From: an uncultured Pseudohongiella sp.
GTDB taxonomy: Bacteria; Pseudomonadota; Gammaproteobacteria; Pseudomonadales; Pseudohongiellaceae
Direction of reading: 5' to 3'
DNA length: 32,000 bases
Assembly (NCBI GenBank): GCA_951812965.1
Contig: OX638341.1
Span: 570,438 to 602,437, forward strand
The notes beneath the pieces were generated by a model. It did not search any database. It had not been told where the DNA came from and saw nothing but the letters and a program-made list of their open reading frames with translations. Positions within the stretch are counted from its first letter, which is position 1. Each line of letters opens with the position of its first letter. The translations under genes were made by a program, and so were the position numbers. Shown piece after piece: positions 7,766 through 30,161 of the stretch.

Positions 7766-7781
7766 GTTCATGGGTTTTCCT
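7766..7781. repeat. Target-site duplication, right copy (gttcatgggttttcct)
   Basis: Identical to 6366-6381. Confidence 0.8.
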
Positions 7782-7801
7782 GGCGGTTCGCATGGTTGTT
7801 A

Positions 7802-9253: not shown

Positions 9254-9425
9254 GGTTTTTCCTGACTACCGGTCAGCACAATTTGTAACAGTATGAAGGC
9301 GATTTCTCACTTACCATTTTCCACCTGATATGGCGATCACCAGCAACGTTTCGGCGTCTGCCTTTTTCGGAATTCTATCTTTGGGATTGTCGTTCGCCAC
9401 GAATTATTGAGGCAAGGATGAGGTA

Positions 9426-13085: not shown

Positions 13086-14863
13086 GGCAACCAATGAAAA
13101 GCTTTTGGACTTGTATCGAACGGTTGGGACGGTACGCTTGCGCGGGCGAGGCGTGCCTCGCCCCTACAAAAACCCACCTGACTGAAAATGTAGGGGCGAG
13201 GCATGCCTCGCCCGCGCATGGGTTGATTTCGCTCGGCTTGCTGTGCGGCCTCATCCTGGCGGGATGCGGCCCGGCCGAGCAAGGACCGCCCGCCGAGGTG
13301 GATCTGATTCTGACCAATGGCAAGGTGCTCACGGTCGATGAGGACTTTTCGATCCACGACACCGTGGTGGTCGATGAAGGCCTGATCGTCGCCACCGGCG
13401 ACGCTTCACTGTTGCAAGACTACAGCGCCGCCGAAGTCGTCGACCTGCAAGGCAAGGTCCTGATGCCGGGATTCGTCGATTCCCATACCCATATCCGCGG
13501 ACGGCCGAATCACTATATTGATCTGACCGAGACGGGCTCGGTCGTCGAGATCCAGCAACTGGTGGAGGCCAAGGCGGAACAAGTCGGGGCCGGCAATTGG
13601 GTTACCGGCTACGGCTGGTCCGAGGACCAGTTGACCGAAGGCCGCCGGCCCCTGCGCGACGATCTCGACGCGGCGGCGCCGGATAATCCCGTCATCCTGA
13701 CTCGCGCTGGCGGCCATAGCGCCGTGGCCAACAGCATGGCGCTGGATCTGGCCGATGTCACTCCGGATACGCCGGACCCAGAAGGCGGCGTGATCGAGCG
13801 CAATCCCGACGGCAGTCTGAACGGGGTCATTCGCGAACGGCAGGGAATCGTCAGCCGGCTGGTGCCGGACGCGACGCCGGATGAGTTGGTCGACAGCCTC
13901 GAAGTCAACCTGAATAACCTGCTCGCCGATGGCATTACCAGCATCATCGATGCATCCAAGGCGCCCGCGGAATACGCCATGTGGGAAGGACTCTACGACA
14001 GCGCGGAATTGCCGCTGCCGCGGGCCGCGCTGCAGTTCCAATGGTACGATCCACCGGCCATCGCCGCGGTCAAGGCCAGGGTCGGCGAGGGTAACGAATT
14101 TCTCAAGGTCGGCCCGATCAAGGTCTTCGCCGACGGCGGCTTTACCGGCCCCGCGGCTTTCACGAAGGAGCCATACCGCGATCAGGGCGACTATCGCGGC
14201 TATCTCGACATGCCGGAGGAAGACCTGATCGCCCATCTCAACGAAATCCACGACGCCGGCTGGCAAATGGGCATTCACGCCATCGGCGACGCCGCCATCG
14301 AACTCGTGGTCGATATTCTGGCGGGCGCCCTGGAGCGCAATCCGCGCGAGGACCACCGCCATTTTCTGAACCACTTTTCCATGCGGCCTTCGGACGCCAC
14401 CATGGAAACCATGGCGCGGCACGGGATTGCCATCACCCAGCAGCCGAATTTCACCTATACTCTGGAAGGACGTTACGTGGAAAATCTCGACGGCTGGCGG
14501 CTGCAGCACAATAATCCCCTGCGCTCGCCGATGGACCATGGCGTGACGGTGGCGATTTCAAGCGACATCCTGCCGATCGGCCCCATGGTGGGGCTGTACG
14601 CGGCGGTGACGCGCAAGGGCATGACCGGCGCGGTCTATGCGGAGGAAGAAAAAATAACAATGGAGGAGGCAATACGAGGCTATACCCGAACCGGCGCCTG
14701 GCTGCTGTTCGAGGAGGACGTGAAAGGCTCGCTGGAGCCCGGCAAATATGCCGACATGATCGTGCTCTCGGACGACTTGCTGACCATCGACCCCGAACGG
14801 ATCATGGATGTCGAAGTCGAGCAGACCTGGCTGGCGGGACGCCTCGTGTATACCAGTCAATGA
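13082..14863 (+). CDS. Amidohydrolase family metallo-hydrolase (Amidohydro_3 / YtcJ-like), probable lipoprotein
   Basis: HxH metal motif PGFVDSHTHI; later GIHAIGDAA and the C-terminal GSLEPGKYADMIVLS. Lipobox LILAGC. The start is uncertain. The maximal ORF starts at ATG 13082, in an ATGA overlap with the aminotransferase stop, but that version translates the REP doublet 13144-13213. An in-frame TTG at 13223 would give MISLGLLCGLILAGC. The stop at 14863 overlaps the next gene's start as ATGA. Confidence 0.85.
   Translation: MRQPMKSFWTCIERLGRYACAGEACLAPTKTHLTENVGARHASPAHGLISLGLLCGLILAGCGPAEQGPPAEVDLILTNGKVLTVDEDFSIHDTVVVDEGLIVATGDASLLQDYSAAEVVDLQGKVLMPGFVDSHTHIRGRPNHYIDLTETGSVVEIQQLVEAKAEQVGAGNWVTGYGWSEDQLTEGRRPLRDDLDAAAPDNPVILTRAGGHSAVANSMALDLADVTPDTPDPEGGVIERNPDGSLNGVIRERQGIVSRLVPDATPDELVDSLEVNLNNLLADGITSIIDASKAPAEYAMWEGLYDSAELPLPRAALQFQWYDPPAIAAVKARVGEGNEFLKVGPIKVFADGGFTGPAAFTKEPYRDQGDYRGYLDMPEEDLIAHLNEIHDAGWQMGIHAIGDAAIELVVDILAGALERNPREDHRHFLNHFSMRPSDATMETMARHGIAITQQPNFTYTLEGRYVENLDGWRLQHNNPLRSPMDHGVTVAISSDILPIGPMVGLYAAVTRKGMTGAVYAEEEKITMEEAIRGYTRTGAWLLFEEDVKGSLEPGKYADMIVLSDDLLTIDPERIMDVEVEQTWLAGRLVYTSQ
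13144..13163. repeat. REP-like palindrome copy R3 (gggcgaggcGtgcctcgccc, one mismatch)
   Basis: Same core as R1/R2 with flanks gcg...ctac. It forms an inverted doublet with R4, 30 nt away. Confidence 0.8.
13194..13213. repeat. REP-like palindrome copy R4 (gggcgaggcatgcctcgccc)
   Basis: Perfect core with flanks gtag...gcg. It is the inverted partner of R3. Confidence 0.85.
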
Positions 14864-15963
14864 GCATCTCGACCGATATTCAGATCGAATTCATCGACAT
14901 AAGCAAGTCTTACGACGGCAAGACCATGGTTCTGCCGAACCTCAACATGAGCGTTCGCAGCGGCGAGTTTCTGACCTTGCTGGGACCGTCCGGTTCCGGC
15001 AAGACGACCTGCCTGATGATGCTGGCGGGATTCGAAACGCCGACATCGGGCGAAATCCGCGTCAACGGCGAGTCGGTGCACAAGCTGCCGCCGCAAAAGC
15101 GCGACATGGGCATGGTGTTCCAGAATTACGCGCTGTTCCCGCACATGACCGTTGGCCAAAACCTGTCCTTTCCGCTGGAAGTCCGCGGCATGGCGCCCGA
15201 CGAACGCGAGCGCCGGGTAAAACGGGCGCTGGAAATCGTGCGTCTGGAAGGCTATGGGGACCGTCGTCCAGGCCAGTTGTCCGGCGGCCAGCAGCAACGG
15301 GTGGCGATCGCCCGGGCGCTGGTGTTCGAGCCCGGCGTGGTGTTGATGGACGAACCGCTCGGCGCTCTCGACCGCCGCCTGCGCGAACAGTTGCAACTCG
15401 AAATTCGTTCGATTCAGCGCGAACTCGGCGTGACCATGGTTTATGTCACCCACGATCAGCAGGAGGCGATGACGCTGTCGGATCGCATCGCGGTCTTCAA
15501 TCACGGCGAAATCCAGCAGGTGGCCGCGCCTGAGACGCTCTACGAGGAGCCGGCTCGGGAGTTCGTGGCGCGATTCGTCGGCGACAACAATCTGCTGCGA
15601 GGCACGGTGCACTCCGTAGACGGCGAGATCTGCAAGGTCCAAGTGGGCGAAGGACTGATCGAGGCCTTTATGGTCGAACCGCTCGAAGTCGGCGCGCAAA
15701 CGGTGCTGGCGATTCGCCCCGAGCGCGTGGTGCTGTCACCGTCGATGGAATACAGCAATACCGTAACCGCCAGTGTCGACGACATGGTTTTCCAGGGCGA
15801 TCACTGGCGAGTCAGCGTCACGACTTACGATCAACCCGAATTCGTCGTCAAGATTCCCAATTTCATCGGCCAGGGCGGCATACTCCCCGGCGACCGCGTG
15901 CGCGTAGGTTGGACGGCGATCGACTGCCGCGCGCTGCCCGAGGAAAATCTGAAGGCGGCGTAA
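14860..15963 (+). CDS. ABC importer ATP-binding protein, PotA-like
   Basis: 367 aa. Walker A GPSGSGKTT, signature LSGGQQQRVAIARAL, Walker B VVLMDEPLGALD, H-loop VTHDQ, and a C-terminal TOBE-like domain. Confidence 0.92.
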   Translation: MSISTDIQIEFIDISKSYDGKTMVLPNLNMSVRSGEFLTLLGPSGSGKTTCLMMLAGFETPTSGEIRVNGESVHKLPPQKRDMGMVFQNYALFPHMTVGQNLSFPLEVRGMAPDERERRVKRALEIVRLEGYGDRRPGQLSGGQQQRVAIARALVFEPGVVLMDEPLGALDRRLREQLQLEIRSIQRELGVTMVYVTHDQQEAMTLSDRIAVFNHGEIQQVAAPETLYEEPAREFVARFVGDNNLLRGTVHSVDGEICKVQVGEGLIEAFMVEPLEVGAQTVLAIRPERVVLSPSMEYSNTVTASVDDMVFQGDHWRVSVTTYDQPEFVVKIPNFIGQGGILPGDRVRVGWTAIDCRALPEENLKAA

Positions 15964-16007
15964 ACAATGCAAGGCGAATTCCACTCAACCGTCATTCCGC
16001 GCCGTAG

Positions 16008-16027
16008 GGGCGACGCATGCGTCGCCC
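16008..16027. repeat. REP-like palindrome copy R5, variant core (gggcgaCgcatgcGtcgccc)
   Basis: Perfect 20-bp palindrome between the ABC ATPase and binding-protein genes. Relative to R1/R2/R4 it carries a paired substitution, G to C in the left arm and C to G in the right arm. The pair keeps the stem intact. Confidence 0.85.
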
Positions 16028-16060
16028 TCGGGTCATTTTGAATGTTCAGGAAAGCAACTT

Positions 16061-17197
16061 GTGAGACACAGCGGCATGATCCCCGGCAATAGTGCAAAAC
16101 CAGGCCGATGCCGGGGCTGTTCGACGGTGTTCGGTCTGCTGCTGGCGCTGTCGTTCGCGATATTTTCCACCGCAGCCGGCGCCCAGACATTGACCCTGGT
16201 TTCCTGGGGCGGCTCCTATGCCCGATCGGTGGAGCGCGCCTGGGTCGAGCCGTTCATGGAGGAGACCGGGATTACCGTGCGCGTGGAGGATTACAACGGC
16301 GGTCTGGCCCAGATTCGCGCCCAGGTCGAAACAGGCAACGTGTTTTGGGACGTCGTCGATATGACGACGCCCGACGCGGTGAGAGGCTGTGACGAAGGCA
16401 TGCTTGAGTTCATTCGGCTGGAAGATCTGCCCCCTGCCCCGGATGGAACGCCCGCCAGCGAGGATTTTCCCCCCGGTAGCCGCTCGGAATGCGCCGGCGG
16501 CGGTATCGTGTCGTCGACGATCGTTGCCTTTAATAACGAACTGTTCCCTGGCGAAAAACCGTCCACGCTGGAAGATTACTTCGATCTGGAAAAATTTCCG
16601 GGCCGCCGAGGCATGCGGCGCGTACCCGTGGTCAATCTGGAATTCGCGCTGATGGCCGACGGCGTGCCGCTTGAAAGGGTCTACCAGACGCTGGACACCG
16701 ATGAAGGCGTTGCGCGAGCGTTTGCCAAACTCGACACGATCAAGGACCAGATCGTGTTCTGGGAAGCCGGCGCCCAGCCGCCGCAGATGCTGGCGGATCA
16801 GGAAGTCGTCATGACAACGGCCTATAACGGCCGCATATTCAACGCCCAGATACTTGAAAACCAGCCGTTCACGATAATCTGGGATGGCCAGGTTCAGGAA
16901 ACCAGCGGGCTGGTAATCGTATTGGGAACGCCGCGGCTGGAAATCGCCGAACAATTCCTCGAATTCATCTCGAGCTCGGAAAGCCTGGCGGCGATCAGCA
17001 AATATATTTCCTATAGCCCCACTCGTAATTCCGCCAATGCACTGGTCTCGACGCATCTGGACACCGGCATCGACATGGCGCCACATATGCCCGCCGCCGA
17101 GCAGAATATGCGCCGCGCGCTGAACAGCGACTGGCTCTGGTGGGCCGACAACAGGGACGAAATGAATGAGCGCTTCGCCGTATGGCTAACTCGCTGA
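16061..17197 (+). CDS. ABC importer periplasmic substrate-binding protein, PotD/PotF-like
   Basis: 378 aa with signal peptide (FSTAAGAQT). It begins LTLVSWGGSY, typical of family-1 polyamine-type binding proteins. GTG start at 16061 preceded by AGGAAA; an alternative ATG is at 16076. Confidence 0.85.
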   Translation: MRHSGMIPGNSAKPGRCRGCSTVFGLLLALSFAIFSTAAGAQTLTLVSWGGSYARSVERAWVEPFMEETGITVRVEDYNGGLAQIRAQVETGNVFWDVVDMTTPDAVRGCDEGMLEFIRLEDLPPAPDGTPASEDFPPGSRSECAGGGIVSSTIVAFNNELFPGEKPSTLEDYFDLEKFPGRRGMRRVPVVNLEFALMADGVPLERVYQTLDTDEGVARAFAKLDTIKDQIVFWEAGAQPPQMLADQEVVMTTAYNGRIFNAQILENQPFTIIWDGQVQETSGLVIVLGTPRLEIAEQFLEFISSSESLAAISKYISYSPTRNSANALVSTHLDTGIDMAPHMPAAEQNMRRALNSDWLWWADNRDEMNERFAVWLTR

Positions 17198-18381
17198 CCA
17201 ACAGACGGCTACGCGCAGCCCTGCTGGCGGCGCCGCTGTTCGTGTTTGTCTCCGTGACCTTTATCGCGCCGCTGGCAACGATGATGATGCGTAGCGTCTA
17301 CGAGCCGGTAGTCGCCGAATCCTTGCCGGAAACCCTGGCGGCGCTGGCGGATTGGGATGGCCGGGAATTGCCGAATGAAGCGACTTTCCGCGTTGCGGGA
17401 ATGGAATTTATCGCCCTGAACGAGCGCCGCGCACTGGGCTCGGTAGCGACCCGGGTCAATCGGCTCGAAAGCGGCATGCGCAGCACCATGCTCGGCGTCG
17501 CCCGCGAGCTGGCAAACGATCCTCCGGCCGGCGCCTGGCGCGAAGCCATGATCGCCGCCGATGAAGACTGGGCCGAAGTTTCGAGTTGGCTGGCGGTTCG
17601 CAGGGCGGGCGAGCGCATCACGCCAAGACACTATCTGAACGCTCTCGATCTGGACCGGGGCGCCGCCGGGGAAATCGTCGCCCAGCCCGAGGACCGGCGC
17701 ATCTACGTTACCTTGCTGTTGCGCACCTTCGCCATCAGCGCCGCCATAACCGGAATCTGCCTGCTGCTGGCTTACCCCGTCGCCTGGCTGCTGGCCCATG
17801 CGCGGCCGAGCCGGGCCGGACTGCTGTTGCTACTCGTGCTGGTGCCGTTCTGGACTTCGCTGCTGGTGCGCACGACTTCCTGGATCGTGCTGTTGCAGAA
17901 TCAGGGCGTGATCAACGATCTGCTGGTGGCGCTGGGAATCCTTGCCGAGGAACAGCGTCTGTCGCTGATTTACAACATGACCGGCACCATCATCGCCATG
18001 GTGCACGTGCTGCTGCCGTTCATGATCCTGCCGCTGTATTCGATCATGCGCACGATTCCGCCGCGGCACATGCAGGCGGCGGCTTCGCTGGGCGGCTCGT
18101 TCTGGCAGTCCTTCCGCCGGGTTTACTGGCCGCAGTCGCTGCCCGGCGTAGCCGCGGGCTCGCTGCTGGTATTTATTATGTCCATCGGCTTTTACATCAC
18201 TCCGGCCCTGGTCGGCGGCCGCACCGGGCAACTGATTTCGAGCATGATCGCCTACCACATGGAACAATCGCTGAACTGGGGCCTGGCGGCGGCGCTCGGC
18301 GCCATTCTGCTGTTGCTCGTGGTGCTGCTCTACCTGATTTATAGCCGTCTGGTGGGAGTCGACAGGATGAGTCTGAGCTGA
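17182..18381 (+). CDS. ABC importer permease, PotB-like, with long periplasmic loop after TM1
   Basis: 399 aa. TM1 is followed by roughly 150 hydrophilic residues. The core permease then has multiple TMs and an EAA-like loop (MQAAASLGGSFWQSFRRVYWP). It overlaps the neighbouring genes at both ends. Confidence 0.88.
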   Translation: MANSLTNRRLRAALLAAPLFVFVSVTFIAPLATMMMRSVYEPVVAESLPETLAALADWDGRELPNEATFRVAGMEFIALNERRALGSVATRVNRLESGMRSTMLGVARELANDPPAGAWREAMIAADEDWAEVSSWLAVRRAGERITPRHYLNALDLDRGAAGEIVAQPEDRRIYVTLLLRTFAISAAITGICLLLAYPVAWLLAHARPSRAGLLLLLVLVPFWTSLLVRTTSWIVLLQNQGVINDLLVALGILAEEQRLSLIYNMTGTIIAMVHVLLPFMILPLYSIMRTIPPRHMQAAASLGGSFWQSFRRVYWPQSLPGVAAGSLLVFIMSIGFYITPALVGGRTGQLISSMIAYHMEQSLNWGLAAALGAILLLLVVLLYLIYSRLVGVDRMSLS

Positions 18382-19214
18382 TGAGCGCCGCGAAGAATCC
18401 TGGCGATTCGAGACTGCGCCGGTGGCTGCATGTCGGCTTCTGCGCCGCGGTGCTGTTTTTCCTGGTGGCGCCGGTGCTGGTGGTGATTCCGCTCAGTTTC
18501 AACGCCGAGCCCTATTTCACTTTTACCGAGGGCATGTTGCGGCTGGATCCGGACGCCTGGTCCCTGCGCTGGTATCGCAATGTGTTGGAAGAAGGCCGCT
18601 GGCTGCCGGCGCTGGGCAAGAGCCTGACAATCGGCATTGCCGCCACCGTGATAGCCACGACGCTTGGCACGCTGGCGGCGCTCGGCCTGAGCAGCCCGGC
18701 GATGCCGGGACGTGGAATGGTGACGGCCCTGCTGATTTCGCCAATGGTGACGCCGATCATCATCACCGCGGCCGGCATGAGCTTCTTCTACTCCGACATG
18801 GGGCTCGGGCAGACCTATACGGCGCTGATACTGGCCCATGCGGTGCTCGGCGCGCCTTTCGTGGTGATCTCGGTCAGCGCGAGCCTCAGCGGCTACAATC
18901 ACGATCTTAATCGAGCGGCGGCCAATCTCGGCGCCAACGGCTGGACAACCTTGCGCCGAGTGCAACTACCGCTGATCGCGCCCGGCGTGTTCACGGGCGC
19001 CTTGTTCGCCTTTGCGGCCTCATTCGACGAAGTGGTCGTGGTGCTGTTCATCGGCGGGCCGGAGCAACGCACCATCCCGCGCGAGATGTGGGCGGGCATC
19101 CGCGAACAAATCAGTCCGGAAATCCTGGCCGTAGCCACCTTCCTCATCGTCTTCGCCATCCTGCTGCTGGCCGCCGTCAACTGGCTCCGCCAGCGCGATT
19201 ATGTGCGAGCCTGA
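18381..19214 (+). CDS. ABC importer permease, PotC-like
   Basis: 277 aa, six predicted TMs, EAA loop LNRAAANLGANGWTTLRRVQLPL. Its start shares one nucleotide with the upstream stop (TGATG). Confidence 0.9.
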   Translation: MSAAKNPGDSRLRRWLHVGFCAAVLFFLVAPVLVVIPLSFNAEPYFTFTEGMLRLDPDAWSLRWYRNVLEEGRWLPALGKSLTIGIAATVIATTLGTLAALGLSSPAMPGRGMVTALLISPMVTPIIITAAGMSFFYSDMGLGQTYTALILAHAVLGAPFVVISVSASLSGYNHDLNRAAANLGANGWTTLRRVQLPLIAPGVFTGALFAFAASFDEVVVVLFIGGPEQRTIPREMWAGIREQISPEILAVATFLIVFAILLLAAVNWLRQRDYVRA

Positions 19215-20206
19215 TCCGACGCCTCCCTCTGCCCTGAATCCGCTTTCCGGGCGTGGACGATGAAGCCCGGCGTGAAAATGCCGAGTTCGCCCGCCTCGAC
19301 CAGGCTGTCCGCCGCCAAATTAAGCAACTCCGCCGCTTCGCTGGCGCCTTGGGGGAGTACGCGCAATTTCTCTAGGGTTTTTGTCAACGCCGCGGTAACT
19401 CGGCGGCCCGCCGGAATTCTCGCCAACGAAGTCAATGACAAATCGCGCGACTGAAGTCCCATGTACCACGGGCTCCGCGAATCCCATTCCTCGTGCTGGT
19501 CGATGGTGGCCGCGACCTGGAAACCCGCTGCGCGAATTGCTTCGACCTGCTCGCCGGTCCGCAACAGCTTGCCTAGCATGTTGCCCTTCTCTATCCCCGC
19601 GCGCGCGGCGCGATGACTCTCCACGGCATCATCGTAGCGATCCGTCAGACACCAGTCGATCACCACAATCTCGCCGCCGGGCTTGAGCAGCCGGTATAGC
19701 TCGCGAAAGACCGGTTCCTTATCCGGCGCATGACAGATTGCCTCGAACGAGTACATGGCGTCGAAAGAGTCGTCAACCATCGGCACGTCCATGAAATCCG
19801 CGTGAAGGAACCGGCAGGTCTCCGTCAGCCCCGATTTACGAAGCAGCTTTTTGCCGCGCGCGACCTGTTCGCCACTGATGTTGATCCCCGTGATGCTCGC
19901 GCCCGTCGTCTTGGCGATAGTAACCATTGGGCCGCCGATGCCGCAGCCCAAATCCGCGACCTCCATTCCGGCTTTGAGAGAGAGCATTGCGCCGATGAAG
20001 GCTTCCTGGCGTTGGTGCGAATCGGCGAGGCTCTCTCCCGGCATGCGCGGCGAGAAATGGAACGAGGATCCCCAGGCGAATTCGTAAAACGGAGTGACCT
20101 GTCTGTAATAGCGCCTGACGAGCGCGAAGTGCTCGCGGTTGCGTCGCATGCCCGGGCTTGAATCGTTCGTTCCCGCCAATCCCTTCTGCGTATCCAGGTG
20201 GCTCAT
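19199..20206 (-). CDS. Sterol C-24 methyltransferase-like SAM-dependent methyltransferase (SMT/ERG6 family), copy B
   Basis: 335 aa. FYEFAWGSSFHF (compare ERG6 YEYGWGSSFHF), SAM site VADLGCGIGGP, YSFEAICHAP (compare IEATCHAP), LKPGGEIV. A C-terminal region ends GIFTPGFIVHARKA, resembling the Sterol_MT_C tail. The comparison with ERG6 is from memory. Confidence 0.75.
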   Translation of the reverse strand: MSHLDTQKGLAGTNDSSPGMRRNREHFALVRRYYRQVTPFYEFAWGSSFHFSPRMPGESLADSHQRQEAFIGAMLSLKAGMEVADLGCGIGGPMVTIAKTTGASITGINISGEQVARGKKLLRKSGLTETCRFLHADFMDVPMVDDSFDAMYSFEAICHAPDKEPVFRELYRLLKPGGEIVVIDWCLTDRYDDAVESHRAARAGIEKGNMLGKLLRTGEQVEAIRAAGFQVAATIDQHEEWDSRSPWYMGLQSRDLSLTSLARIPAGRRVTAALTKTLEKLRVLPQGASEAAELLNLAADSLVEAGELGIFTPGFIVHARKADSGQREASDQART

Positions 20207-20275
20207 TTATGCGCCGGCTTCAAGAAGTGTTCAAGCGATCCGGCCTGGAGGACCAAAAAGTCATTCGAGGCGGGA

Positions 20276-21307
20276 TCAGGGCTCATCAGGCTTCCTTGCC
20301 AGCGCGAAGTACATCGGCGTAAAAATTCCACGCCGACCGGCCTCGGTGAACGCCAATGCCGCCGTGTTCAGGAGTGCCGACACCCGATGCGCACCTTTCG
20401 GAACGACTCCGAGACTCTCCAGCAGCTTGACCAGCGTATGGGTCACGACGCGTCCCCATCTGCAACTCCAGATCGTTTCCAGCGATGGCCCCGCACTGAT
20501 CAGAGGCTCATACCAGGCAACGTCCGATGCGGCTTCCATGGAGAGGTCGCGAGCATCCAGCAGTTCGAATCCGACCTTCCGCAGCGCGTCATCGACCTCG
20601 TGCGGGAAGGCGATTTCGGGCAAGCCGCCGCCCAGTTCGATGTCGGCCTTGAGGCGGAGATGATCAGAATCTTCCTCATCGAACCGGTCGGTCAGGCAGT
20701 ACTCGTAAGTTCCGAAACGTCCGCCCGGTTTAAGAACCCGCAACACTTCGGCGAAGGCGTCCGCCTTGTTCGGCGCACAGCAAGTGGTCTCTATTGAGTA
20801 AACGGCATCGAAGGAATCATTCGGGAAGTCCATCTTCATGAAATCTCCCACCACGTATTCCGCCAAGTGCTCCAGACCCGCCTCTTCGGTGTACTTTCGG
20901 GCGCGCTCCACCTGGTAGTCGCTGATGTTCACGCCCACCACCGCCGCTCCGCTGAAACGCGCTATCTCGCGTTGCGGTCCGCCGATCCCACAGCCGAGAT
21001 CGAGAACCGACATTCCGGGACGCAGTCCGAGCATATGAGCGAGATAGTGTTCGTGCCTCGCGAGTGAAGCCGTAAAGCGCTCACCCTTTGCCCGCGCCGC
21101 GAAGTGGAAGGATCTGTCCCATCCGTATTCGTAGAAGTCGGTGGTGAGGTCGAAATAGAGCTTGACGAAGTTCCGGTATTCGGCGAGCCGCAGATCCTGT
21201 CCACCACGTGCTTCGCCTCCGTATCGGTGCTCGTATTCCCCGATAGCGGAAGCCACATCGTCATTCTCCACCGCTCCCTTGAGTAAACCGGACAGTCTTG
21301 CCGTCAA
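20276..21307 (-). CDS. Sterol C-24 methyltransferase-like SAM-dependent methyltransferase (SMT/ERG6 family), copy A
   Basis: 343 aa. TTDFYEYGWDRSFHF...ASLARHEHYLAHMLGL...VLDLGCGIGGPQREIARFSG...VVGDFMKMDFPNDSFDAVYSIETTCCAP...VLKPGG...ADIELGGGLPE...GIFTPMYFALARKP. It is colinear with my memory of yeast ERG6 over nearly the full length. TTG start at 21307 preceded by GAGGGG. Confidence 0.8.
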   Translation of the reverse strand: MTARLSGLLKGAVENDDVASAIGEYEHRYGGEARGGQDLRLAEYRNFVKLYFDLTTDFYEYGWDRSFHFAARAKGERFTASLARHEHYLAHMLGLRPGMSVLDLGCGIGGPQREIARFSGAAVVGVNISDYQVERARKYTEEAGLEHLAEYVVGDFMKMDFPNDSFDAVYSIETTCCAPNKADAFAEVLRVLKPGGRFGTYEYCLTDRFDEEDSDHLRLKADIELGGGLPEIAFPHEVDDALRKVGFELLDARDLSMEAASDVAWYEPLISAGPSLETIWSCRWGRVVTHTLVKLLESLGVVPKGAHRVSALLNTAALAFTEAGRRGIFTPMYFALARKPDEP

Positions 21308-21557
21308 GGTGATTTTCCCCTCACATTAGCAATTTCCGGTTGTCCGCGCAGACACCGAATCGGCACGGATGATAGCAACGTTCGCCCTTCCCCCACAATC
21401 TGTAGACCAGGCAACGCGCAGACTATGCTTTTTTGCGACTGTTCCGGCGCAAAACGTGAACTTTACTCACTTTTAAAGTCCAAATATCGCTCGGTTGATG
21501 CGGACACGTGCTGTCTGATCGTGAGATTTTGGCGGGGGCGGGTGTCCCATGACCAGT

Positions 21558-21586
21558 TTGCAATCGACCTATTTTTGGACTAAATT
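21558..21586 (+). promoter_or_regulatory. Candidate sigma70 promoter of phd-parE (TTGCAA, 17 nt spacer, TAAATT)
   Basis: -35 at 21558-21563 and -10 at 21581-21586, in an AT-richer gap. AAGGTGA and the ATG at 21611 follow. Confidence 0.45.
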
Positions 21587-21610
21587 CAGACCTGTTTCAA
21601 GGTGAAAATC

Positions 21611-21877
21611 ATGACACTAGCAAGTAACATCAAACCGATCAGTTATCTGAAATCGCACGCCGCCGAAATTGTCCGTACGCTGGGAGAAACGACCGAGCCC
21701 TACATCATCACGCAAAACGGTCAGGCTAAGGTCGTGGTGCAAGATATAGACAGTTACGAGCGCATGCAGGAAACCATTGCCCTGTTGAAGATACTCGCGC
21801 AAGGGAAAGAACAGATCGAAGCGGGCAAAGTACGGGACGCGGCGGATGTGATAGCGACCCTCCGCGCACGACGTTAA
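21611..21877 (+). CDS. phd: Type II antitoxin, Phd/YefM family
   Basis: MTLASNIKPISYLKSHAAEIVRTLGETTEPYIITQNGQAKVVVQDIDSYERMQETIALLKILAQG is the typical Phd/YefM fold signature. The track ORF begins at GTG 21602. The ATG at 21611 has the better RBS spacing. Confidence 0.88.
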   Translation: MTLASNIKPISYLKSHAAEIVRTLGETTEPYIITQNGQAKVVVQDIDSYERMQETIALLKILAQGKEQIEAGKVRDAADVIATLRARR

Positions 21878-21888
21878 CCGACACCCCC

Positions 21889-22215
21889 GTGCCGCACCTG
21901 TTCAAACTAACAGACGCCGCGGCCGGCGACCTCGAAGACTTGTGGGAATACATCGGGCAACATGACTCTCGAGATGCCGCCGATCATGTGTTGACCCGGC
22001 TCGAAGAGGCTTTCTCAAGCCTTTCCGAGCGGCCGTCGCGCGGAGCATATCCGAAGGAATTGCTGGAATTGGGGTTGCGGGAATTTCGCGAAATTTTCTT
22101 CAAACCCTTTCGAATCATTTACCAGTTGCAGGACGATATCGTCTATGTCGTAGCCGTCGCCGACAGTCGCCGCGATGCGCGCTCCTTACTCGAAAGGCGC
22201 CTGCTTCGAGTTTGA
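21889..22215 (+). CDS. parE: Type II toxin, ParE/RelE family
   Basis: 108 aa. LTDAAAGDLEDLWEYIGQHDSRDAADHVLTRLEEAFSSLSERPSRG...FREIFFKPFRIIYQLQDDIVYVVAVADSRRD is the ParE pattern. It starts 12 nt after the antitoxin gene. Confidence 0.85.
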   Translation: MPHLFKLTDAAAGDLEDLWEYIGQHDSRDAADHVLTRLEEAFSSLSERPSRGAYPKELLELGLREFREIFFKPFRIIYQLQDDIVYVVAVADSRRDARSLLERRLLRV

Positions 22216-22229
22216 GTGGGCCGGAATCT

Positions 22230-24227
22230 CTATTCGAAAACAGCTTCATTGGCGCGGGCTATGTCCATGTAGGCGTTCTTGAAGCCTGGCAGCAGGTAAC
22301 CTTCGCTGATGAGTTTGTCGGTGGCGGCTTCGTATTTTTGCAGGTAATCGTCGAAGGACTGGTACAGGCCCGCGACCGAGTTGCGCAGGTCGCCGGATTG
22401 CACCGCCGCGGCGGTATTGGTCGGGAACGGAATGTAGCCGCCGGCGAGCCGGGCCAGGGAGCGCTCGGCGCCGGTTGCGGGGGCGCGCAGGTTCCACGGG
22501 GTGAAAGTCGCCAGGGGGACTGCCGTCAGGGGCGGCAGCACGGTGCTTTCAGTGAAGTCGTTGTTGTCGGAATTTACCGCCGGCGCCAGCGCTCCGTACA
22601 GGTGGTCGGAAGACTGCGGATGCCGGTCCACGATGCGTTCGCTGTTCCAGCGCGGACCATATTCGGCATGAGCCGGACGGTAGAGCGCCTCAGGATGATT
22701 CACGCCGCGTAACGGAGTCCAGACCGCGCGATTGATGCGGCCGTCTACGTGGGAAGGCGCCAGCGTGCCGTCGGCGATGCGCGGATAGCGTGATTCGGGC
22801 GGCTCCTCGCCTTCCGCTACCCAGCGATACATGGCAACGAGCAGGGAATCGGCTATCGGCGCCCACAAGTTCGGATTCCTCGGCAATTGCGTATTGGCGT
22901 CTTCGCGCGGCGTTCCATTGCCCGAACCGTGCTGGGAGCCACCGATGGTGTAGAAACGCACGTTCGGCGGAATATATGCGTCTTCGCTGCCGTCGGGTGT
23001 GGTATGCGGCAGCGAGCCCGCGCGCACCCAGTATTCGTTTGAAGTCTGGACGTGGAACACCATCGGCGCCGTGCCGCTGGCCCTGGCGCGGCGCAGGATG
23101 CCGTCGTTGCGGCCGGTCCATGGGTCGGTGCTTTCGCCATAAGTAAAGGGGAACAGATCGTTCGGGTACAGGTGATTGGAATGTTGTCCGTTGGTGCGGG
23201 TGGGCATGGCGAAGCGGAGGTTGAACATGCCGTAGCCACCGCCGGCGATCACCGGAATTACGCCGTCGAAAACCTTGCGCGATTCGAGATCGGCATTGAA
23301 TCCGTCGTACATGAATTGCCGCAACAGCCGCCCGCTCTGGGAATTGCCCCAGGCCACAGTGTGTTCGATGTCGACCAGGCCGAGTTGCGCCAGTTGTTCC
23401 TCGCCTTCACCTCCATACCGCATGAGCGGTACGAGATCGCGGATCGCGGCCATACCGGCGCCCGCAAGCACCGGGTCCCGGGCCTCGTAAACAAGCTCGT
23501 AGATCATGCCGGGCTCGAAGCCGCCGTCCAGCGCGAGGTTGACGATGGGCTGACTGCTGTCCGGCTCGTCGACGACCGACAGCTCAAAACGCGAACGTTC
23601 GATCGGGATGCGCGCATCGGTCTGGTATTGCCGCCGGTTGAGGCTTGCTTCGCGCAGGCCGCGCTCGGTCGGCGCATAGGCCAGATGTCCGCTGCCGGCG
23701 ATATTTACCTCGTCCGCCGGGCTGTTGACGATGACCTCGTAGCGGACGTCGCCGGTTATGAGATCGTCAGCCGAGCCGACGACGGGGGCGTGCAGGCGCA
23801 GGCGACTTGGTCCCGGCGTGATTTCGTTGATCCAGCCGGTGACGAGATAAGTGAAGCCGAGGCCGGCCAGCGGATGATCGAAGGAAATTTCCGGCGCGAC
23901 CCGCGAGCCGCCGCGGTTATTGACGTTGTATAACAGGCCGCCGTTGGCGATGTCCGCCGAGGGCGCCAGCACCCTGAAGTCGGCGGAATACTCGACCATG
24001 CCTTCGCCGTTGCGCGGCGCGTAGGCGATGTCGGCGATCATGGCGTTGCCCGAATGATCCGGGTCCAGGCTCAGGTAAAGCACGCCTTCGATCACATCGT
24101 AAGTGAAATCGTGTCCTGCGCTCGAAAGCGTTTCGCGGCTGGTGATTTCGATGCGGTCGACACCGGCGAAAGTAATCGACGGCAACAGCAGGAAAAGGAA
24201 AACAAGCAGGCGCGGCAGACTCGTCAT
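22230..24227 (-). CDS. Secreted alpha/beta-hydrolase-domain protein of unknown function (Abhydrolase_10-like large family)
   Basis: Signal peptide MTSLPRLLVFLFLLLPSITFAG. N-terminal VDRIEITSRE...LDPDHSGNAMIADIAYAPRNGEGMVEYSADFRVLAP...GGLLYNVNNRG. Candidate nucleophile elbow WGNSQSGRLLRQFMYDGFN. I prefer the ATG at 24227 (GGAG with 8 nt spacing) over the GTG at 24236. Confidence 0.65.
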   Translation of the reverse strand: MTSLPRLLVFLFLLLPSITFAGVDRIEITSRETLSSAGHDFTYDVIEGVLYLSLDPDHSGNAMIADIAYAPRNGEGMVEYSADFRVLAPSADIANGGLLYNVNNRGGSRVAPEISFDHPLAGLGFTYLVTGWINEITPGPSRLRLHAPVVGSADDLITGDVRYEVIVNSPADEVNIAGSGHLAYAPTERGLREASLNRRQYQTDARIPIERSRFELSVVDEPDSSQPIVNLALDGGFEPGMIYELVYEARDPVLAGAGMAAIRDLVPLMRYGGEGEEQLAQLGLVDIEHTVAWGNSQSGRLLRQFMYDGFNADLESRKVFDGVIPVIAGGGYGMFNLRFAMPTRTNGQHSNHLYPNDLFPFTYGESTDPWTGRNDGILRRARASGTAPMVFHVQTSNEYWVRAGSLPHTTPDGSEDAYIPPNVRFYTIGGSQHGSGNGTPREDANTQLPRNPNLWAPIADSLLVAMYRWVAEGEEPPESRYPRIADGTLAPSHVDGRINRAVWTPLRGVNHPEALYRPAHAEYGPRWNSERIVDRHPQSSDHLYGALAPAVNSDNNDFTESTVLPPLTAVPLATFTPWNLRAPATGAERSLARLAGGYIPFPTNTAAAVQSGDLRNSVAGLYQSFDDYLQKYEAATDKLISEGYLLPGFKNAYMDIARANEAVFE

Positions 24228-24323
24228 GGCGGTCACTCCACAATATTCGGAAGAGAATCAGTAGAACGGCCCGATCATTTCAAAGCCGGATTACTTGGTC
24301 AAGACTGGGCCCGCCTTCAGCAT

Positions 24324-24351
24324 GTAGGGGCGAGGCATGCCTCGCCCCTAC
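24324..24351. repeat. REP-like palindrome copy R6, full 28-bp perfect palindrome (gtaggggcgaggcatgcctcgcccctac)
   Basis: It lies between the DUF1499 gene's stop and the hydrolase gene's start, and carries both gtag and ctac flanks. Confidence 0.9.
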
Positions 24352-24379
24352 AATCTTGCATGTATCTGAACCTGAAGAG

Positions 24380-25120
24380 TCAGCGCGCGTCCTCGACGCG
24401 GCCGATGATTTCGAATATGCGTTCGGCATTGGCGCCGAGATCGACTACTCCGACTCGCGATACCGAGCGGACGTCCATGCGGGTGCCGGCGTCCGTTTCA
24501 CGCAGCCTGACCACGAGATCGTCCTTGAAACCGAACCAGAACGTCGTTGCAATTGCCTCGATTTCGCCCTGCTCCGGATCCTCGCGCACGAGTTCGAGCC
24601 CCATGTCGATGAGAACGCCACGGACGAGTTCGAACATTTCGTCCCGCGGCAAATCCATGTCCAGCGGCCCCAGGTCAGGATAGCCTTCGCGTTGCAAGGG
24701 GCCGATCGTTTCACTGTCGTAGAAGAGCGGGTTATCGCCTTCGCCGCGCAGCGACGCGACCACGGTGAACTCGGGAGGATCCTCGATATCCGTACTCACG
24801 TTGTGAATCGGAGCCACGGTAAACGCCGACGCCACCGCAACGCCAAGATAGGTAGCCGCCAGCAGGGAAATCGCGGCGCCCGGCGCCGCCAGCGGCGGGC
24901 GCTCACCAGCCTTCCTGTGGCGCACCAGGGCGATGACGCCCAGAATCAGGCCGACAATTCCCATAACCAGGCCCAGGGGCGCGAGCAGCAATCCGATGCC
25001 GAAAGACCACAGGCCAATGCGAGTGCCGAGCCCGCCGAGCACGGGAAGGAGAATTGCGAGCAGGCCGAGCCCCAAAGAGAACGAGGCGAGCTTGCTTCTT
25101 TTCGATGATATCTGGTTCAC
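24380..25120 (-). CDS. DUF1499-domain membrane protein
   Basis: N-terminal TM helices, then the DUF1499-type C-terminus (FKDDLVVRLRETDAGTRMDVRSVSRVGVVDLGANAERI). I prefer the GTG at 25120, preceded by GAGGAG with 6 nt spacing. The longer track ORF (to 25153) would translate REP copy R7. Confidence 0.75.
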   Translation of the reverse strand: MNQISSKRSKLASFSLGLGLLAILLPVLGGLGTRIGLWSFGIGLLLAPLGLVMGIVGLILGVIALVRHRKAGERPPLAAPGAAISLLAATYLGVAVASAFTVAPIHNVSTDIEDPPEFTVVASLRGEGDNPLFYDSETIGPLQREGYPDLGPLDMDLPRDEMFELVRGVLIDMGLELVREDPEQGEIEAIATTFWFGFKDDLVVRLRETDAGTRMDVRSVSRVGVVDLGANAERIFEIIGRVEDAR

Positions 25121-25142
25121 ACGGGTCTCCTCGAACGATTCC

Positions 25143-25166
25143 GGGCGACGCATGCGTCGCCCCTAC
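25143..25166. repeat. REP-like palindrome copy R7, variant core (gggcgacgcatgcgtcgccc + ctac)
   Basis: Same compensated variant as R5. It lies between the EamA gene's stop and the DUF1499 gene's start. Confidence 0.85.
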
Positions 25167-28149: not shown

Positions 28150-28262
28150 GTCGCCGTCGGGTCAGGGGAAGTGCAGCGGACGCCGTCAATACGTCCGTGT
28201 AGGCTTCGGGCTCGGCGTCCTGCCTCGCACGCCCGCTGCACTTCCCCTGACCCGACGGCGAC
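28150..28262. repeat. 113-bp element with perfect 30-bp terminal inverted repeat
   Basis: Left arm 28150-28179 is gtcgccgtcgggtcaggggaagtgcagcgg. Right arm 28233-28262 is ccgctgcacttcccctgacccgacggcgac, its exact reverse complement. The 53-nt centre contains a further 8-bp stem, ggacgccg / cggcgtcc (28178-28185 and 28213-28220). Confidence 0.9.
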
Positions 28263-28410
28263 TCACGTTGTGCAGGCCCTTCATACTGTCATTCTGCGCG
28301 TAGCAAAGCGAAGTCGCAGAATCTCCCCTCCCTGGCGCCTGGACTGTGCAGGCTGTTGCTGTTCCGGTTAGGCTTGCCCTCGTATGGGTTGAACTCAAGC
28401 GGGAGGTTTC

Positions 28411-29307: not shown

Positions 29308-29419
29308 AACGCAAATCCGCAATTCCCGCGACGTCTCGCCGGATACCGGCGTTACGGCTGAAAACCGCATCGCGGATTGCACTTTCAATTGCAAATGATA
29401 TTCTTGTCCGCATGTATAG

Positions 29420-29611
29420 ATGACCGTGTTTCTGGACGCCAATCCGCTGGTGTACGCGCAAGGCAAGGATACCAAGACCGAGATAGGCCGCCAGATCGTT
29501 CTGCAAGGCGGCGTCATCGGTTCGCGAGCGCCGGATGAGTTCATGAGCGTGCAGCGGCGCAAGTTCAAGGACGGTATTTCCGCCGTTCTCCCGGTGGACC
29601 TTTCCGGCTGA
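29420..29611 (+). pseudogene. N-terminal fragment of a PIN-domain (VapC-like) gene, 63 codons
   Basis: MTVFLDANPLVYAQGKD...GGVIGSRAPDEFMSVQRRKF matches the first half of PIN toxins: the first acidic residue in FLDAN and the second in PDEF. The C-terminal half with the remaining acidic residues is absent. There is no SD and no antitoxin gene upstream. Its stop overlaps the next ATG. Confidence 0.5.
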
Positions 29612-30132: not shown

Positions 30133-30161
30133 CGCCGAACATTGAAGGAGCGTTAATCCCA

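What the first reader, a model, noticed from the sequence alone, without database searches (positions are those of the whole stretch)
19199..21307. Two tandem eukaryote-type sterol C-24 methyltransferase (ERG6/SMT) homologues in a bacterial gene neighbourhood
Both minus-strand ORFs carry the SMT signature blocks rather than a generic class I methyltransferase pattern. Copy A has TDFYEYGWDRSFHF, LDLGCGIGGP, YSIETTCCAP and a C-terminal ...GIFTPMYFALARKP. Copy B has FYEFAWGSSFHF, DLGCGIGGP, YSFEAICHAP and ...GIFTPGFIVHARKA. Copy A is colinear with my memory of yeast ERG6 from the N-terminal region to the last residues. Sterol side-chain methylation is classically a eukaryotic trait. As I recall, bacterial SMT homologues have so far been reported mainly from uncultured or metagenomic bacteria, including sponge-associated ones. 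Multiple copies there were linked to successive C-24/C-28 methylations relevant to 24-isopropylcholestane biomarkers. A tandem pair with diverged active-site blocks (H to C in the IEATCHAP block of copy A) fits stepwise or substrate-split methylation. No sterol cyclase or demethylase genes are in this window. The pair sits between a polyamine-type ABC operon and a toxin-antitoxin module.
Basis: partly seen in the sequence, partly recalled or inferred. Interest (0 to 1): 0.8.

Follow-up and report, generated by a model that had tools for sequence, protein, structure and literature searches.

The report
Acquired pair of bacterial sterol methyltransferase genes
Two adjacent genes for sterol side-chain methyltransferases really are present, but they belong to bacterial enzyme groups already described and tested in 2023–2025; the new details are that they arrived together as a small inserted DNA segment and that each differs at one or two residues so far conserved in every working enzyme.

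Summary
The two minus-strand ORFs, 20276-21307 (copy A, 343 aa) and 19199-20206 (copy B, 335 aa), both pass Pfam Sterol_MT_C and a class I methyltransferase domain. They align colinearly with yeast ERG6 (41% and 35% identity).

They are not a new kind of gene. Bacterial SMTs number in the thousands in metagenomes, and dozens have been tested in vitro (Brown et al. 2023; Brown & Welander 2025).

The pair is not a local duplication. The copies are 42% identical and fall in two deep bacterial clades:
- Copy A is in the G249/C199 clade, so the H-to-C change is a clade trait.
- Copy B is in the N249 clade.

Copy A keeps 23 and copy B 24 of the 25 residues conserved in all functional SMTs. The exceptions are F74 and D86 in A and A84 in B, so activity on standard substrates is not assured. 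dN/dS of 0.17-0.27 indicates both are kept under selection.

Close gammaproteobacterial relatives keep the flanking genes but lack about 3.0 kb (~19211-22236) holding both SMTs and the Phd/ParE module, so this is a lineage-specific insertion. No sterol-synthesis genes lie in the window. The sterol source, host-derived or made elsewhere in the genome, is untestable here.

The parts
20276..21307 (-). Copy A (SMT-A), 343 aa, TTG start with a GAGGGG ribosome-binding site upstream. Member of the G249/C199 bacterial SMT clade. Own-numbering key residues: F52 (yeast 74), Y59 (81), Y61 (83), G62 (84), D64 (86), C177 (199), G227 (249).
   Evidence: ORF. Pfam Sterol_MT_C 77 bits plus Methyltransf_11. 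ERG6 colinearity. Residue mapping. The N-terminus aligns from residue 1 with relatives. RBS seen. AF2 pLDDT 90.7. dN/dS 0.17-0.21.
19199..20206 (-). Copy B (SMT-B), 335 aa, ATG start. Long-branch member of the N249/H199 bacterial SMT clade. Own-numbering key residues: Y41 (81), F43 (83), A44 (84), G46 (86), H159 (199), N209 (249). Its last 16 nt overlap the 3' end of the convergent permease gene.
   Evidence: ORF. Pfam Sterol_MT_C 59 bits. Nearest relatives only 58-64% identical. Residue mapping. AF2 pLDDT 86.9, with residues 1-17 disordered. dN/dS about 0.26 with dS saturated.
20207..20275 (-). 69-nt spacer between A and B on the same strand, with no terminator-like site. The two genes are probably co-transcribed (inference).
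   Evidence: Sequence. Terminator scan found none between the genes.
21308..21601 (.). 294-nt divergent intergenic region between copy A and the Phd antitoxin gene. It holds one sigma-70-like match on the minus strand (21600-21571), no more than expected by chance.
   Evidence: 1 site found against 1.1 expected. for the sequence.
21602..21877 (+). Phd/YefM-family antitoxin, 91 aa, part of the inserted segment.
   Evidence: Pfam PF02604, 62.9 bits. GC3 0.61 against 0.73-0.81 in the flanks.
21889..22215 (+). ParE-family toxin, 108 aa, part of the inserted segment.
   Evidence: Pfam PF05016, 66.2 bits. GC3 0.63.
19211..22236 (.). Lineage-specific insert of about 3.0 kb (SMT-B, SMT-A, Phd, ParE), absent from close relatives that keep both flanks. 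GC 0.58 against 0.616 for the window. No flanking direct or inverted repeats.
   Evidence: DNA homology to L091 and L092 ends at about window 19201-19210 and resumes at 22237-22249. Gene tables. Composition. Repeats.
11721..19214 (+). Conserved left flank: class III aminotransferase, amidohydrolase, PotA-like ATPase, solute-binding protein and PotB/PotC-like permeases. Not functionally linked to the SMTs; used as the synteny anchor.
   Evidence: 77-91% protein identity to L091 and L092.
22230..25153 (-). Conserved right flank: Abhydrolase_10 protein and DUF1499 protein. Synteny anchor.
   Evidence: 82-85% identity to L091 and L092.

Best explanation
The two genes encode SAM-dependent sterol side-chain (C-24/C-28) methyltransferases of the bacterial SMT family. 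They are not duplicates of each other. Copy A belongs to the G249/C199 clade, which is common in sponge-associated MAGs. The propylating enzymes all carry the G249 signature, but none was placed in my tree. Copy B belongs to the separate N249 clade.

The two genes, together with a Phd/ParE toxin-antitoxin module, form a roughly 3-kb segment. It was inserted between a polyamine-type ABC operon and an Abhydrolase_10 gene in an uncultured, probably Pseudomonadales-like, gammaproteobacterium. The genes are probably transcribed as one unit from the divergent region upstream of copy A.

Shown here: family membership, clade placement, insertion, purifying selection, and absence of sterol-ring genes within 32 kb.

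Inferred: the substrates are delta-24 sterols, either taken up from a eukaryotic host or the environment, or made by genes elsewhere in the 3.4-Mb genome. From the published residue rules, copy B (N249, F83) would add one or two carbons and not three. Copy A (G249 but Y81/Y83) could add more than one carbon but is a poor candidate for propylation. Both predictions are weakened because A carries F74 and D86, and B carries A84, at positions invariant in every SMT so far shown to be active.
For: Family: Sterol_MT_C plus a class I methyltransferase domain in both, and colinear 35-41% identity to ERG6. Copy A keeps 23 of 25 and copy B 24 of 25 residues conserved in functional SMTs. The same mapping returns 25 of 25 for three published tested SMTs, which validates it (residue list read).

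Clades: residue signatures in 120 relatives each and an NJ tree.

Sterol link of the A-type clade: relative P0038 (60% identity) lies in a cluster with a second SMT, a Rieske/KshA-like oxygenase, an MMPL transporter with a sterol-sensing domain and a P450. Published in-vitro activity exists for bacterial SMTs of both clades.

Selection: dN/dS 0.17-0.27. Confident folds with pLDDT 87-91.

Insertion: relatives L091 and L092 keep both flanks at 77-91% protein identity but lack the segment, and the DNA breakpoints are defined. GC3 is lower in the insert. Copy A's nearest named relatives are Gemmatimonadota (Ca. Palauibacter, 66-69%), a different phylum from the host.

Host taxon: the flanking aminotransferase has a 94%-identity cluster that includes NCBI 'Gammaproteobacteria bacterium' proteins. 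Its 81% cluster includes a protein on a 3,510,664-bp contig, the same length as OZ244788.1 'uncultured Pseudohongiella sp.'.
Against: No enzyme assay exists for either protein or for any close relative. The tested SMTs I could retrieve are only 47-48% identical to A and 43-44% identical to B.

G86 and G84 are among residues reported as conserved in all functional SMTs. G84 was retained by every SMT tested, functional or not, and 7 of 11 inactive SMTs deviated at one or more of the 25 positions. Either copy could therefore be inactive on desmosterol or 24-methylenecholesterol.

No sterol-synthesis or sterol-transport gene is nearby. Whether the genome has an oxidosqualene cyclase could not be checked.

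In the sampled genomes the G249-type loci are never next to a cyclase (0 of 23 against 30 of 55 for the others; p = 1.2e-6), so their physiological substrate is less well anchored.

Operon structure and promoter are inferred only, and the promoter scan is at chance level.

The insertion could formally be two independent deletions in the relatives.
Confidence: 0.6

Rival explanations
1. Division of labour: A and B act in sequence or on different sterols (for example one makes 24-methylene and the other 24-ethyl or propyl products). This would explain why two different SMTs travel together. It is the first reader's idea without the tandem-duplication element.
For: The two genes are adjacent on the same strand, 69 nt apart, with no terminator between them. 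They were gained together. They differ at the product-determining positions 83 and 249. In the published Sandaracinus MAG pair, one SMT ethylates and the other only methylates.
Against: Every bacterial SMT that used 24-methylenecholesterol also methylated desmosterol, and single enzymes perform all steps, so two enzymes are not required. No other A-type plus B-type pair was found in 173 fetched loci, so the pairing is not a recurrent functional module.
Confidence: 0.25
2. Altered chemistry or substrate: one or both proteins methylate a different position (C-26, C-4 as in STRM-type SMT homologues, or C-28 only) or a non-sterol isoprenoid. The Region I substitutions (D86 in A, A84 in B) would reflect a reshaped substrate pocket.
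For: D/N/S86 with R87 is shared by copy A's subclade, including Ca. Palauibacter, and is maintained under purifying selection. A84 is present in 72 of 120 N249-clade members. SMT-family enzymes with C-4 regiochemistry are known in eukaryotes (PMC9136925). Only 4 of 10 additional sponge-metagenome SMTs tested (nine with G249, one with a gap there) were active on the standard substrates. 26-SMTs are still undiscovered. G249-type loci were never cyclase-linked in my sample.
Against: All other catalytic and binding residues, and the Sterol_MT_C domain, are canonical. No positive evidence exists for any alternative product. The A-type relative P0038 sits in a sterol-type gene cluster.
Confidence: 0.15
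3. Inactive passengers: the SMT genes are non-functional cargo kept in place only by the linked toxin-antitoxin module.
For: Both copies deviate at positions conserved in all active SMTs. The segment is an accessory insert carrying an addiction module. No pathway partners are nearby.
Against: Both reading frames are intact and full length. dN/dS is 0.17-0.27 against relatives. The deviating residues are shared by many relatives rather than being private lesions. Both fold models are confident.
Confidence: 0.08
4. Eukaryotic contamination or chimeric assembly: the SMT genes are sponge or algal DNA mis-joined to a bacterial contig.
For: SMTs are classically eukaryotic.
Against: Copy B's 3' end overlaps the bacterial permease gene by 16 nt. 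There are no introns. Copy A has a TTG start with a Shine-Dalgarno site. All close homologues lie on bacterial MAG contigs up to 5 Mb. Both proteins are recorded on one 3,425,201-bp contig. Identity to ERG6 is lower than identity to bacterial clades.
Confidence: 0.01

Closest known systems
Bacterial sterol methyltransferases of uncultured and sponge-symbiont bacteria (Brown, Olagunju, Giner & Welander 2023, Nat Commun, PMC10070321), including two-copy cases such as Aplysina aerophoba JGIcombinedJ30088_10000835 1 of 2 / 2 of 2, Sandaracinus sp. MAG 1 and 2, and the Theonella-associated Chromatiales sp. 1 of 2 / 2 of 2
   Same: Same protein family and domain architecture (class I methyltransferase plus Sterol_MT_C). 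Same kind of source (uncultured bacteria; named relatives of copy A include Ca. Poriferisodalis (name suggests sponge association; my inference) and Ca. Palauibacter, whose order is cosmopolitan marine and also found in sponges). Two SMT genes in one genome or contig. The Chlamydiae MAG in that paper is a precedent for an SMT without other sterol genes.
   Different: Here the two genes are immediately adjacent and come from two different clades. They are not in a sterol gene cluster, and they sit with a toxin-antitoxin module on a 3-kb insert missing from close relatives. Neither protein is closer than about 48% identity to the tested enzymes I could retrieve. Both carry substitutions (F74/D86; A84) at positions invariant in the tested functional set.
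Propylating bacterial SMTs and the G249 / F81 / F83 residue rules (Brown & Welander 2025, bioRxiv 10.64898/2025.12.19.695621)
   Same: Copy A has Gly at yeast position 249, which was necessary for 24-isopropyl production. Copy B has F83.
   Different: Copy A lacks Phe at both 81 and 83; all four propylating enzymes have at least one. It shares only 3 of the 11 residues that were picked as distinguishing propylating SMTs (G249, E350, F362). Copy B has N249, and the G249N mutant lost C30 production.
Saccharomyces cerevisiae ERG6 and eukaryotic SMT1/SMT2
   Same: Colinear over nearly the full length. Regions I-IV and the C-terminal domain are conserved. 41% (A) and 35% (B) identity.
   Different: The two genes sit in bacterial clades, are shorter at the N-terminus, have C199 (A), and have G or N at position 249 instead of Asp. 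The genomic context is bacterial.
STRM-type sterol C-4 methyltransferases (SMT homologues of dinoflagellates, haptophytes and nematodes; Zhou et al. 2022, PMC9136925)
   Same: SMT-family fold used on a sterol substrate. They show that regiochemistry in this family is not fixed at C-24.

Membership tests
Sterol methyltransferase (SMT/ERG6) family | Class I SAM-dependent methyltransferase domain followed by the Sterol_MT_C domain (PF08498), above Pfam gathering scores | tested here: met
   A 77.2 bits and B 58.8 bits against a cut-off of 21.7; Methyltransf_11 83 and 79 bits.
Sterol methyltransferase (SMT/ERG6) family | Full-length colinear similarity to a characterised SMT (ERG6) | tested here: met
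   A 40.6% over 345 aa (E 7e-95); B 35.1% over 322 aa (E 8e-69). The ERG6 sequence was recalled from memory and checked at 28 published positions.
Sterol methyltransferase (SMT/ERG6) family | Region I sterol-binding motif 84-GWGxxFHF-91 (yeast numbering) | tested here: not met
   A reads GWDRSFHF (G86D) and B reads AWGSSFHF (G84A). W85, F89, H90 and F91 are kept in both. The deviations are shared with relatives: D/N/S86 in A's subclade, and A84 in 72 of 120 N249-clade proteins.
Sterol methyltransferase (SMT/ERG6) family | Region II SAM-binding motif 125-DxGxGxxGP-133, E195 (Region III), G217 (Region IV) | tested here: met
   all are present in both copies.
Functional bacterial SMTs (Brown & Welander 2025 criteria) | All 25 residues conserved among SMTs active on desmosterol or 24-methylenecholesterol | tested here: not met
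   A keeps 23 of 25 (Y74F, G86D); B keeps 24 of 25 (G84A). The same mapping gives 25 of 25 for three published tested SMTs (L099, L103, L114).
Functional bacterial SMTs (Brown & Welander 2025 criteria) | SAM-dependent methylation of a delta-24 sterol in vitro | not testable with these tools
   Requires expression and GC-MS. No close relative (above 50% identity) with published per-enzyme data could be identified, because activities are given only in figure images.
Propylating (24-isopropyl-forming) bacterial SMTs | Gly at position 249 (necessary, not sufficient) | tested here: met
   Copy A has G227, equivalent to G249. Copy B has N249, so it does not meet this feature.
Propylating (24-isopropyl-forming) bacterial SMTs | Phe at position 81 and/or 83 in the same protein as G249 | tested here: not met
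   Copy A has Y81 and Y83. Copy B has F83 but lacks G249.
Bacterial de novo sterol biosynthesis gene cluster | SMT adjacent to oxidosqualene cyclase, squalene epoxidase, SdmA/B, CYP51 or sterol reductases | tested here: not met
   Pfam on 20 window proteins. DCTAE motif scan. tblastn with cyclase, Rieske, MMPL-SSD and P450 probes. None is in the 32-kb window. The rest of the genome could not be searched.
Recent tandem duplicates | The two copies are each other's closest relatives | tested here: not met
   42% identity. Each has far closer relatives elsewhere, 78% and 64%. They fall in separate clades in the NJ tree.
Type II toxin-antitoxin Phd/ParE module | Adjacent small antitoxin (PF02604) and toxin (PF05016) genes on the same strand | tested here: met
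   62.9 and 66.2 bits; the genes are 11 nt apart.
STRM-type sterol C-4 methyltransferases | Clustering with BmSTRM / C. elegans STRM-1 rather than C-24 SMTs | not tested
Only the paper's abstract and outline were read.

The most novel reading that the evidence does not exclude
The insert is a self-stabilising, horizontally mobile 'sterol-tailoring' cassette. It lets a bacterium that makes no sterols of its own alkylate sterols taken from a eukaryotic host. Copy A's D/N/S86-R87 subclade and the untested A84 form of copy B's N249 clade would have a substrate or regiochemistry not yet described for SMTs, for example C-26 methylation of codisterol-type sterols. That is the missing enzyme behind 26-methyl sponge biomarkers.
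Probability: 0.08. Interest if true: 0.75.

Novelty: new member of a known kind. Interest (0 to 1): 0.3.

Why it matters
Side-chain-alkylated steranes (ergostane, stigmastane, 24-isopropylcholestane, 26-methylstigmastane) are read as fossils of eukaryotes and early animals. Every bacterial route to such sterols weakens that reading.

This locus adds nothing fundamental to what Brown et al. established, but it contributes three concrete points:
1. SMT genes can move between bacterial phyla as small accessory inserts, here linked to an addiction module. This helps explain their patchy distribution across more than ten phyla.
2. In species-representative genomes, the G249 signature that all propylating enzymes carry is systematically uncoupled from oxidosqualene cyclase genes. 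This points towards modification of exogenous sterols rather than de novo synthesis.
3. Large natural subclades carry substitutions at 'invariant' Region I positions (G86D/N/S, G84A). These give ready-made tests of the published residue rules for predicting SMT activity from sequence.

Tried and rejected
- **Origin look-ups.** Exact-sequence look-ups for copy A and copy B found no gene on record, so the source record and sample could not be named. The collection only says both lie on one 3,425,201-bp contig.
- **Genome scan.** The genome-contig scan did not return the window's own genome. The best hit was 67% identity. The cap then prevented searching that collection for a cyclase from the same organism.
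- **Paper supplements.** The supplements of Brown et al. 2023 hold spectra and gene IDs but no sequences. Per-enzyme activities are only in figure images, so I could not tie A or B to a tested enzyme of known product.
- **Metagenome scan.** It did not sample the close N249-clade loci, so the absence of A+B pairs there is weak evidence.
- **Mobile-element signatures.** A repeat search at the insert borders found only short chance-level matches: no target-site duplication, inverted repeats or integrase. The ISNCY transposase at 6460-7638 is 11.5 kb away, outside the insert, and relatives were not checked for it.
- **Promoter and terminator scan** was at chance level.
- **NCBIfam** has no SMT equivalog. 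The best hits, all far below cut-off, were sarcosine/dimethylglycine and arsenite methyltransferases. I rejected these as artefacts of the shared Rossmann core.
- **Eukaryotic contamination** was considered and rejected (see rivals).


Full report
**1. Observation**

Copy A is 20276-21307 on the minus strand, 343 aa, with a TTG start. Copy B is 19199-20206 on the minus strand, 335 aa, with an ATG start. All the quoted sequence blocks are present.

Both proteins pass Pfam's Sterol_MT_C model (77.2 and 58.8 bits; gathering score 21.7) and the Methyltransf_11/25/31 models. They are 42% identical to each other over 302 residues.

I recalled the yeast ERG6 sequence from memory and checked it against 28 numbered residues given in Brown & Welander 2025; all matched. 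Against that sequence copy A is 40.6% identical over 345 colinear residues (E 7e-95). Copy B is 35.1% identical over 322 residues (E 8e-69).

**2. Family and clade**

NCBIfam has no SMT model, and its hits are all far below cut-off. The PDB holds no true SMT structure. Sequence and fold searches return only generic natural-product methyltransferases.

The large protein collection shows how common the family is in bacteria. More than 4000 proteins match copy A at E <= 1e-20. The nearest are 78%, 73% and 71% identical. Named relatives are 'sterol methyltransferase' of Ca. Palauibacter (Gemmatimonadota) and Ca. Poriferisodalis. Copy B's nearest relatives are only 58-64% identical. They come from Chloroflexota and Gammaproteobacteria MAGs and from JGI metagenomes, where they are called sterol 24-C-methyltransferase.

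A scan of species-representative genomes found relatives in MAGs of more than ten phyla. By their isolate names and my own recollection, many appear to come from sponge microbiomes.

I mapped yeast-numbered positions onto 120 relatives of each copy and built a rough NJ tree. Three bacterial groups emerge:
- a clade with H199 and D or N at 249, usually F83, often next to a cyclase gene;
- an N249/H199 clade, which contains copy B on a long branch;
- a G249, mostly C199 clade, which contains copy A inside a Palauibacter-like subclade.

The copies are therefore not diverged tandem duplicates.

**3. What is already known**

Brown et al. 2023 (PMC10070321) expressed 24 metagenomic bacterial SMTs.
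- Most made 24-methyl or 24-ethyl sterols.
- Three made 24-isopropyl sterols, each by itself.
- Several contigs or MAGs carry two SMTs, including a Theonella-associated Chromatiales MAG.
- The authors concluded that copy number does not predict product.

Brown & Welander 2025 found that:
- Phe at position 81 or 83 raises C30 yield;
- the G249N mutant still makes C28 and C29 products but no C30;
- 25 residues are conserved in all functional SMTs.

**4. Applying those rules**

| | 25 conserved residues kept | Deviations | 81 | 83 | 199 | 249 |
|---|---|---|---|---|---|---|
| Copy A | 23 | Y74F, G86D | Y | Y | C | G |
| Copy B | 24 | G84A | Y | F | H | N |

The same mapping gives 25 of 25 for three SMTs from the published test set that I retrieved: Petrosia LXNJ01014139, Sarcotragus LXNI01004480 and hot spring Ga0114945_10021081. 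For the hot-spring enzyme this agrees with the preprint's statement that it has no obvious deviations.

The deviations are not private lesions. Copy A's nearest relatives have D, N or S at position 86 followed by Arg. A84 occurs in 72 of 120 N249-clade proteins. According to the preprint, G84 was retained by every SMT tested, so the A84 form is biochemically unexplored.

Pairwise dN/dS against the nearest relatives is 0.17-0.21 for A and about 0.26 for B, with dS saturated. AlphaFold models are confident, with pLDDT 90.7 and 86.9. Both genes therefore look functional and selected, but whether they act on the standard substrates cannot be read from sequence.

**5. Context**

The 32-kb window encodes:
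- an S9 peptidase and a PQQ dehydrogenase;
- an ISNCY transposase;
- a TonB-dependent receptor;
- a class III aminotransferase and an amidohydrolase;
- a PotA/B/C-like ABC transporter;
- the two SMTs and Phd/ParE;
- an Abhydrolase_10 protein, a DUF1499 protein, an EamA transporter and an FG-GAP protein;
- several unknowns.

There is no cyclase, epoxidase, demethylase, reductase or sterol transporter.

The flanking aminotransferase identifies the host as a gammaproteobacterium. A cluster 94% identical to it contains NCBI proteins named 'Gammaproteobacteria bacterium'. An 81% cluster contains a protein on a 3,510,664-bp contig, the length of OZ244788.1 'uncultured Pseudohongiella sp.'.

**6. The pair is an insert**

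Two close relatives keep the block aminotransferase, amidohydrolase, ABC transporter, then Abhydrolase_10, at 77-91% protein identity. L091 also keeps DUF1499; in L092 a PPK2 gene follows Abhydrolase_10 instead. The relatives are L091 (aminotransferase 88% identical) and L092 (83%; a 2.53-Mb contig).
- In L092 the last permease and Abhydrolase_10 are about 130 bp apart.
- In L091 the same spot holds a UPF0150 gene and an NYN gene instead.

DNA homology to both ends at about window 19210 and resumes at 22237-22249. The intervening 3.0 kb contains exactly SMT-B, SMT-A, Phd and ParE.

Its GC is 0.58 against 0.616 for the window. GC3 is 0.75 (B), 0.69 (A) and 0.61-0.63 (TA genes), against 0.73-0.81 in the flanks. 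No terminal repeats or integrase were found.

Copy A's nearest named relatives are in another phylum. The simplest reading is horizontal gain at a variable spot. Independent loss in two relatives is the less likely alternative.

The closest homologue of copy A (P0002, 78%) is a lone SMT in an unrelated neighbourhood. No other A-type plus B-type pair appeared in 173 fetched loci.

**7. Sterol linkage across the family**

In the species-representative genomes, 0 of 23 loci with a G249-type SMT have a cyclase-like gene within 10 kb. For the other types the figure is 30 of 55 (Fisher p = 1.2e-6).

Some G249-type genes do sit with sterol-type partners. P0038 lies with a second SMT, a Rieske/KshA-like oxygenase, an MMPL protein with a sterol-sensing domain and a P450. 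The published propylating Aplysina enzyme is in a cyclase-containing cluster (and supplement). The uncoupling is therefore a tendency, not a rule.

The N249-clade relatives examined are also orphans. So is the third-type SMT of the Pseudohongiella-like MAG.

**8. Mechanism proposed**

Both proteins should bind SAM through the intact DxGxGxxGP motif and transfer methyl to the delta-24(25) or delta-24(28) bond of a sterol side chain, as in ERG6/SMT chemistry (established knowledge of the family).
- Copy B (N249, F83) is predicted to stop at one or two additions.
- Copy A (G249, Y81/Y83) may go beyond one addition but is a weak propylation candidate.

The genes are 69 nt apart with no terminator between them. 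They are probably co-transcribed from the 294-nt divergent region shared with the antitoxin gene; this is inference.

The sterol source is unknown: a eukaryotic host (the Chlamydiae precedent) or biosynthetic genes elsewhere in the genome.

**9. Verdict**

This is a genuine but already-known kind of gene: a new member, with modest added value. The added value lies in the mobile-insert context, the cross-clade pairing and the natural variants at 'invariant' Region I positions.

Noticed in passing
window 6460-7638 (+): Complete ISNCY-family transposase gene (NCBIfam NF033594, 359 bits against a cut-off of 250). It lies 11.5 kb upstream of the SMT insert and outside it. Whether relatives carry it was not checked.
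   Followed up: partly
L031, L038, L040, L043-L045, L051, L053-L056, L059, L061, L063, L067, L068, L071, L074, L078, L080 (next to the SMT gene): Most cyclase-like ORFs (DCTAE motif) beside bacterial SMTs are 1150-1580 aa stop-to-stop, about twice the size of a normal oxidosqualene cyclase. This suggests fused squalene epoxidase-cyclase genes. In Brown et al.'s Supplementary Data 1, one Aplysina gene (JGIcombinedJ30088_1000083512) hits both ERG1 and ERG7, consistent with such a fusion.
   Followed up: partly
L001-L080 (species-representative genomes): SMTs with the G249 signature are never within 10 kb of a cyclase-like gene (0 of 23). SMTs of the other types are in 30 of 55 cases (Fisher p = 1.2e-6). 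The published papers, as far as I read them, do not state this split.
   Followed up: yes
L091 17518-18540, against window 19211-22236 and L092 18766-18871: The same intergenic spot between the ABC operon and Abhydrolase_10 holds different small cargo in each relative: UPF0150 (HicB-like) plus NYN in L091, nothing in L092, and SMT pair plus Phd/ParE here. It looks like a recurrent integration hot spot for toxin-antitoxin-type modules.
   Followed up: partly
L083 3720-14317 (JGI 3300027391, Ga0209022_1001158): A sterol-type gene cluster without a cyclase in the 21 kb held. It contains two SMTs (one of an unusual M81/I249 type), a Rieske/KshA_C oxygenase, an MMPL protein with a sterol-sensing domain, a GPP34-P450 fusion protein and an amine-oxidase-like flavoprotein.
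   Followed up: no
window 19199-19214: The 3' ends of the convergent genes for the PotC-like permease (+) and SMT-B (-) overlap by 16 nt. The left junction of the insert therefore lies inside or at the very end of both coding regions.
   Followed up: partly
window 28186-30180 (-), 30153-31967 (-), 7754-9265 (+): Three long ORFs (664, 604 and 503 aa) have no Pfam match. The first two have unusually high first-codon-position GC (0.71-0.81) and lower GC3 than their neighbours. Long overlapping ORFs exist on the opposite strand, so the true reading frames are uncertain.
   Followed up: no
L087 1-301 and 8226-12270: An N249-clade SMT (P0137, 58% identical to copy B) lies between an FMO-like and a FAD_binding_3 monooxygenase gene, on a contig that also encodes an ankyrin-repeat protein. 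From my own knowledge, ankyrin-repeat proteins are often enriched in sponge symbionts.
   Followed up: no
L092 14386-16742 and L091 16312-17427: The solute-binding protein gene of the conserved ABC operon is duplicated in L092. In L091 it has moved to the end of the operon, while in the window it sits between the ATPase and permease genes. Operon order is fluid among close relatives.
   Followed up: no
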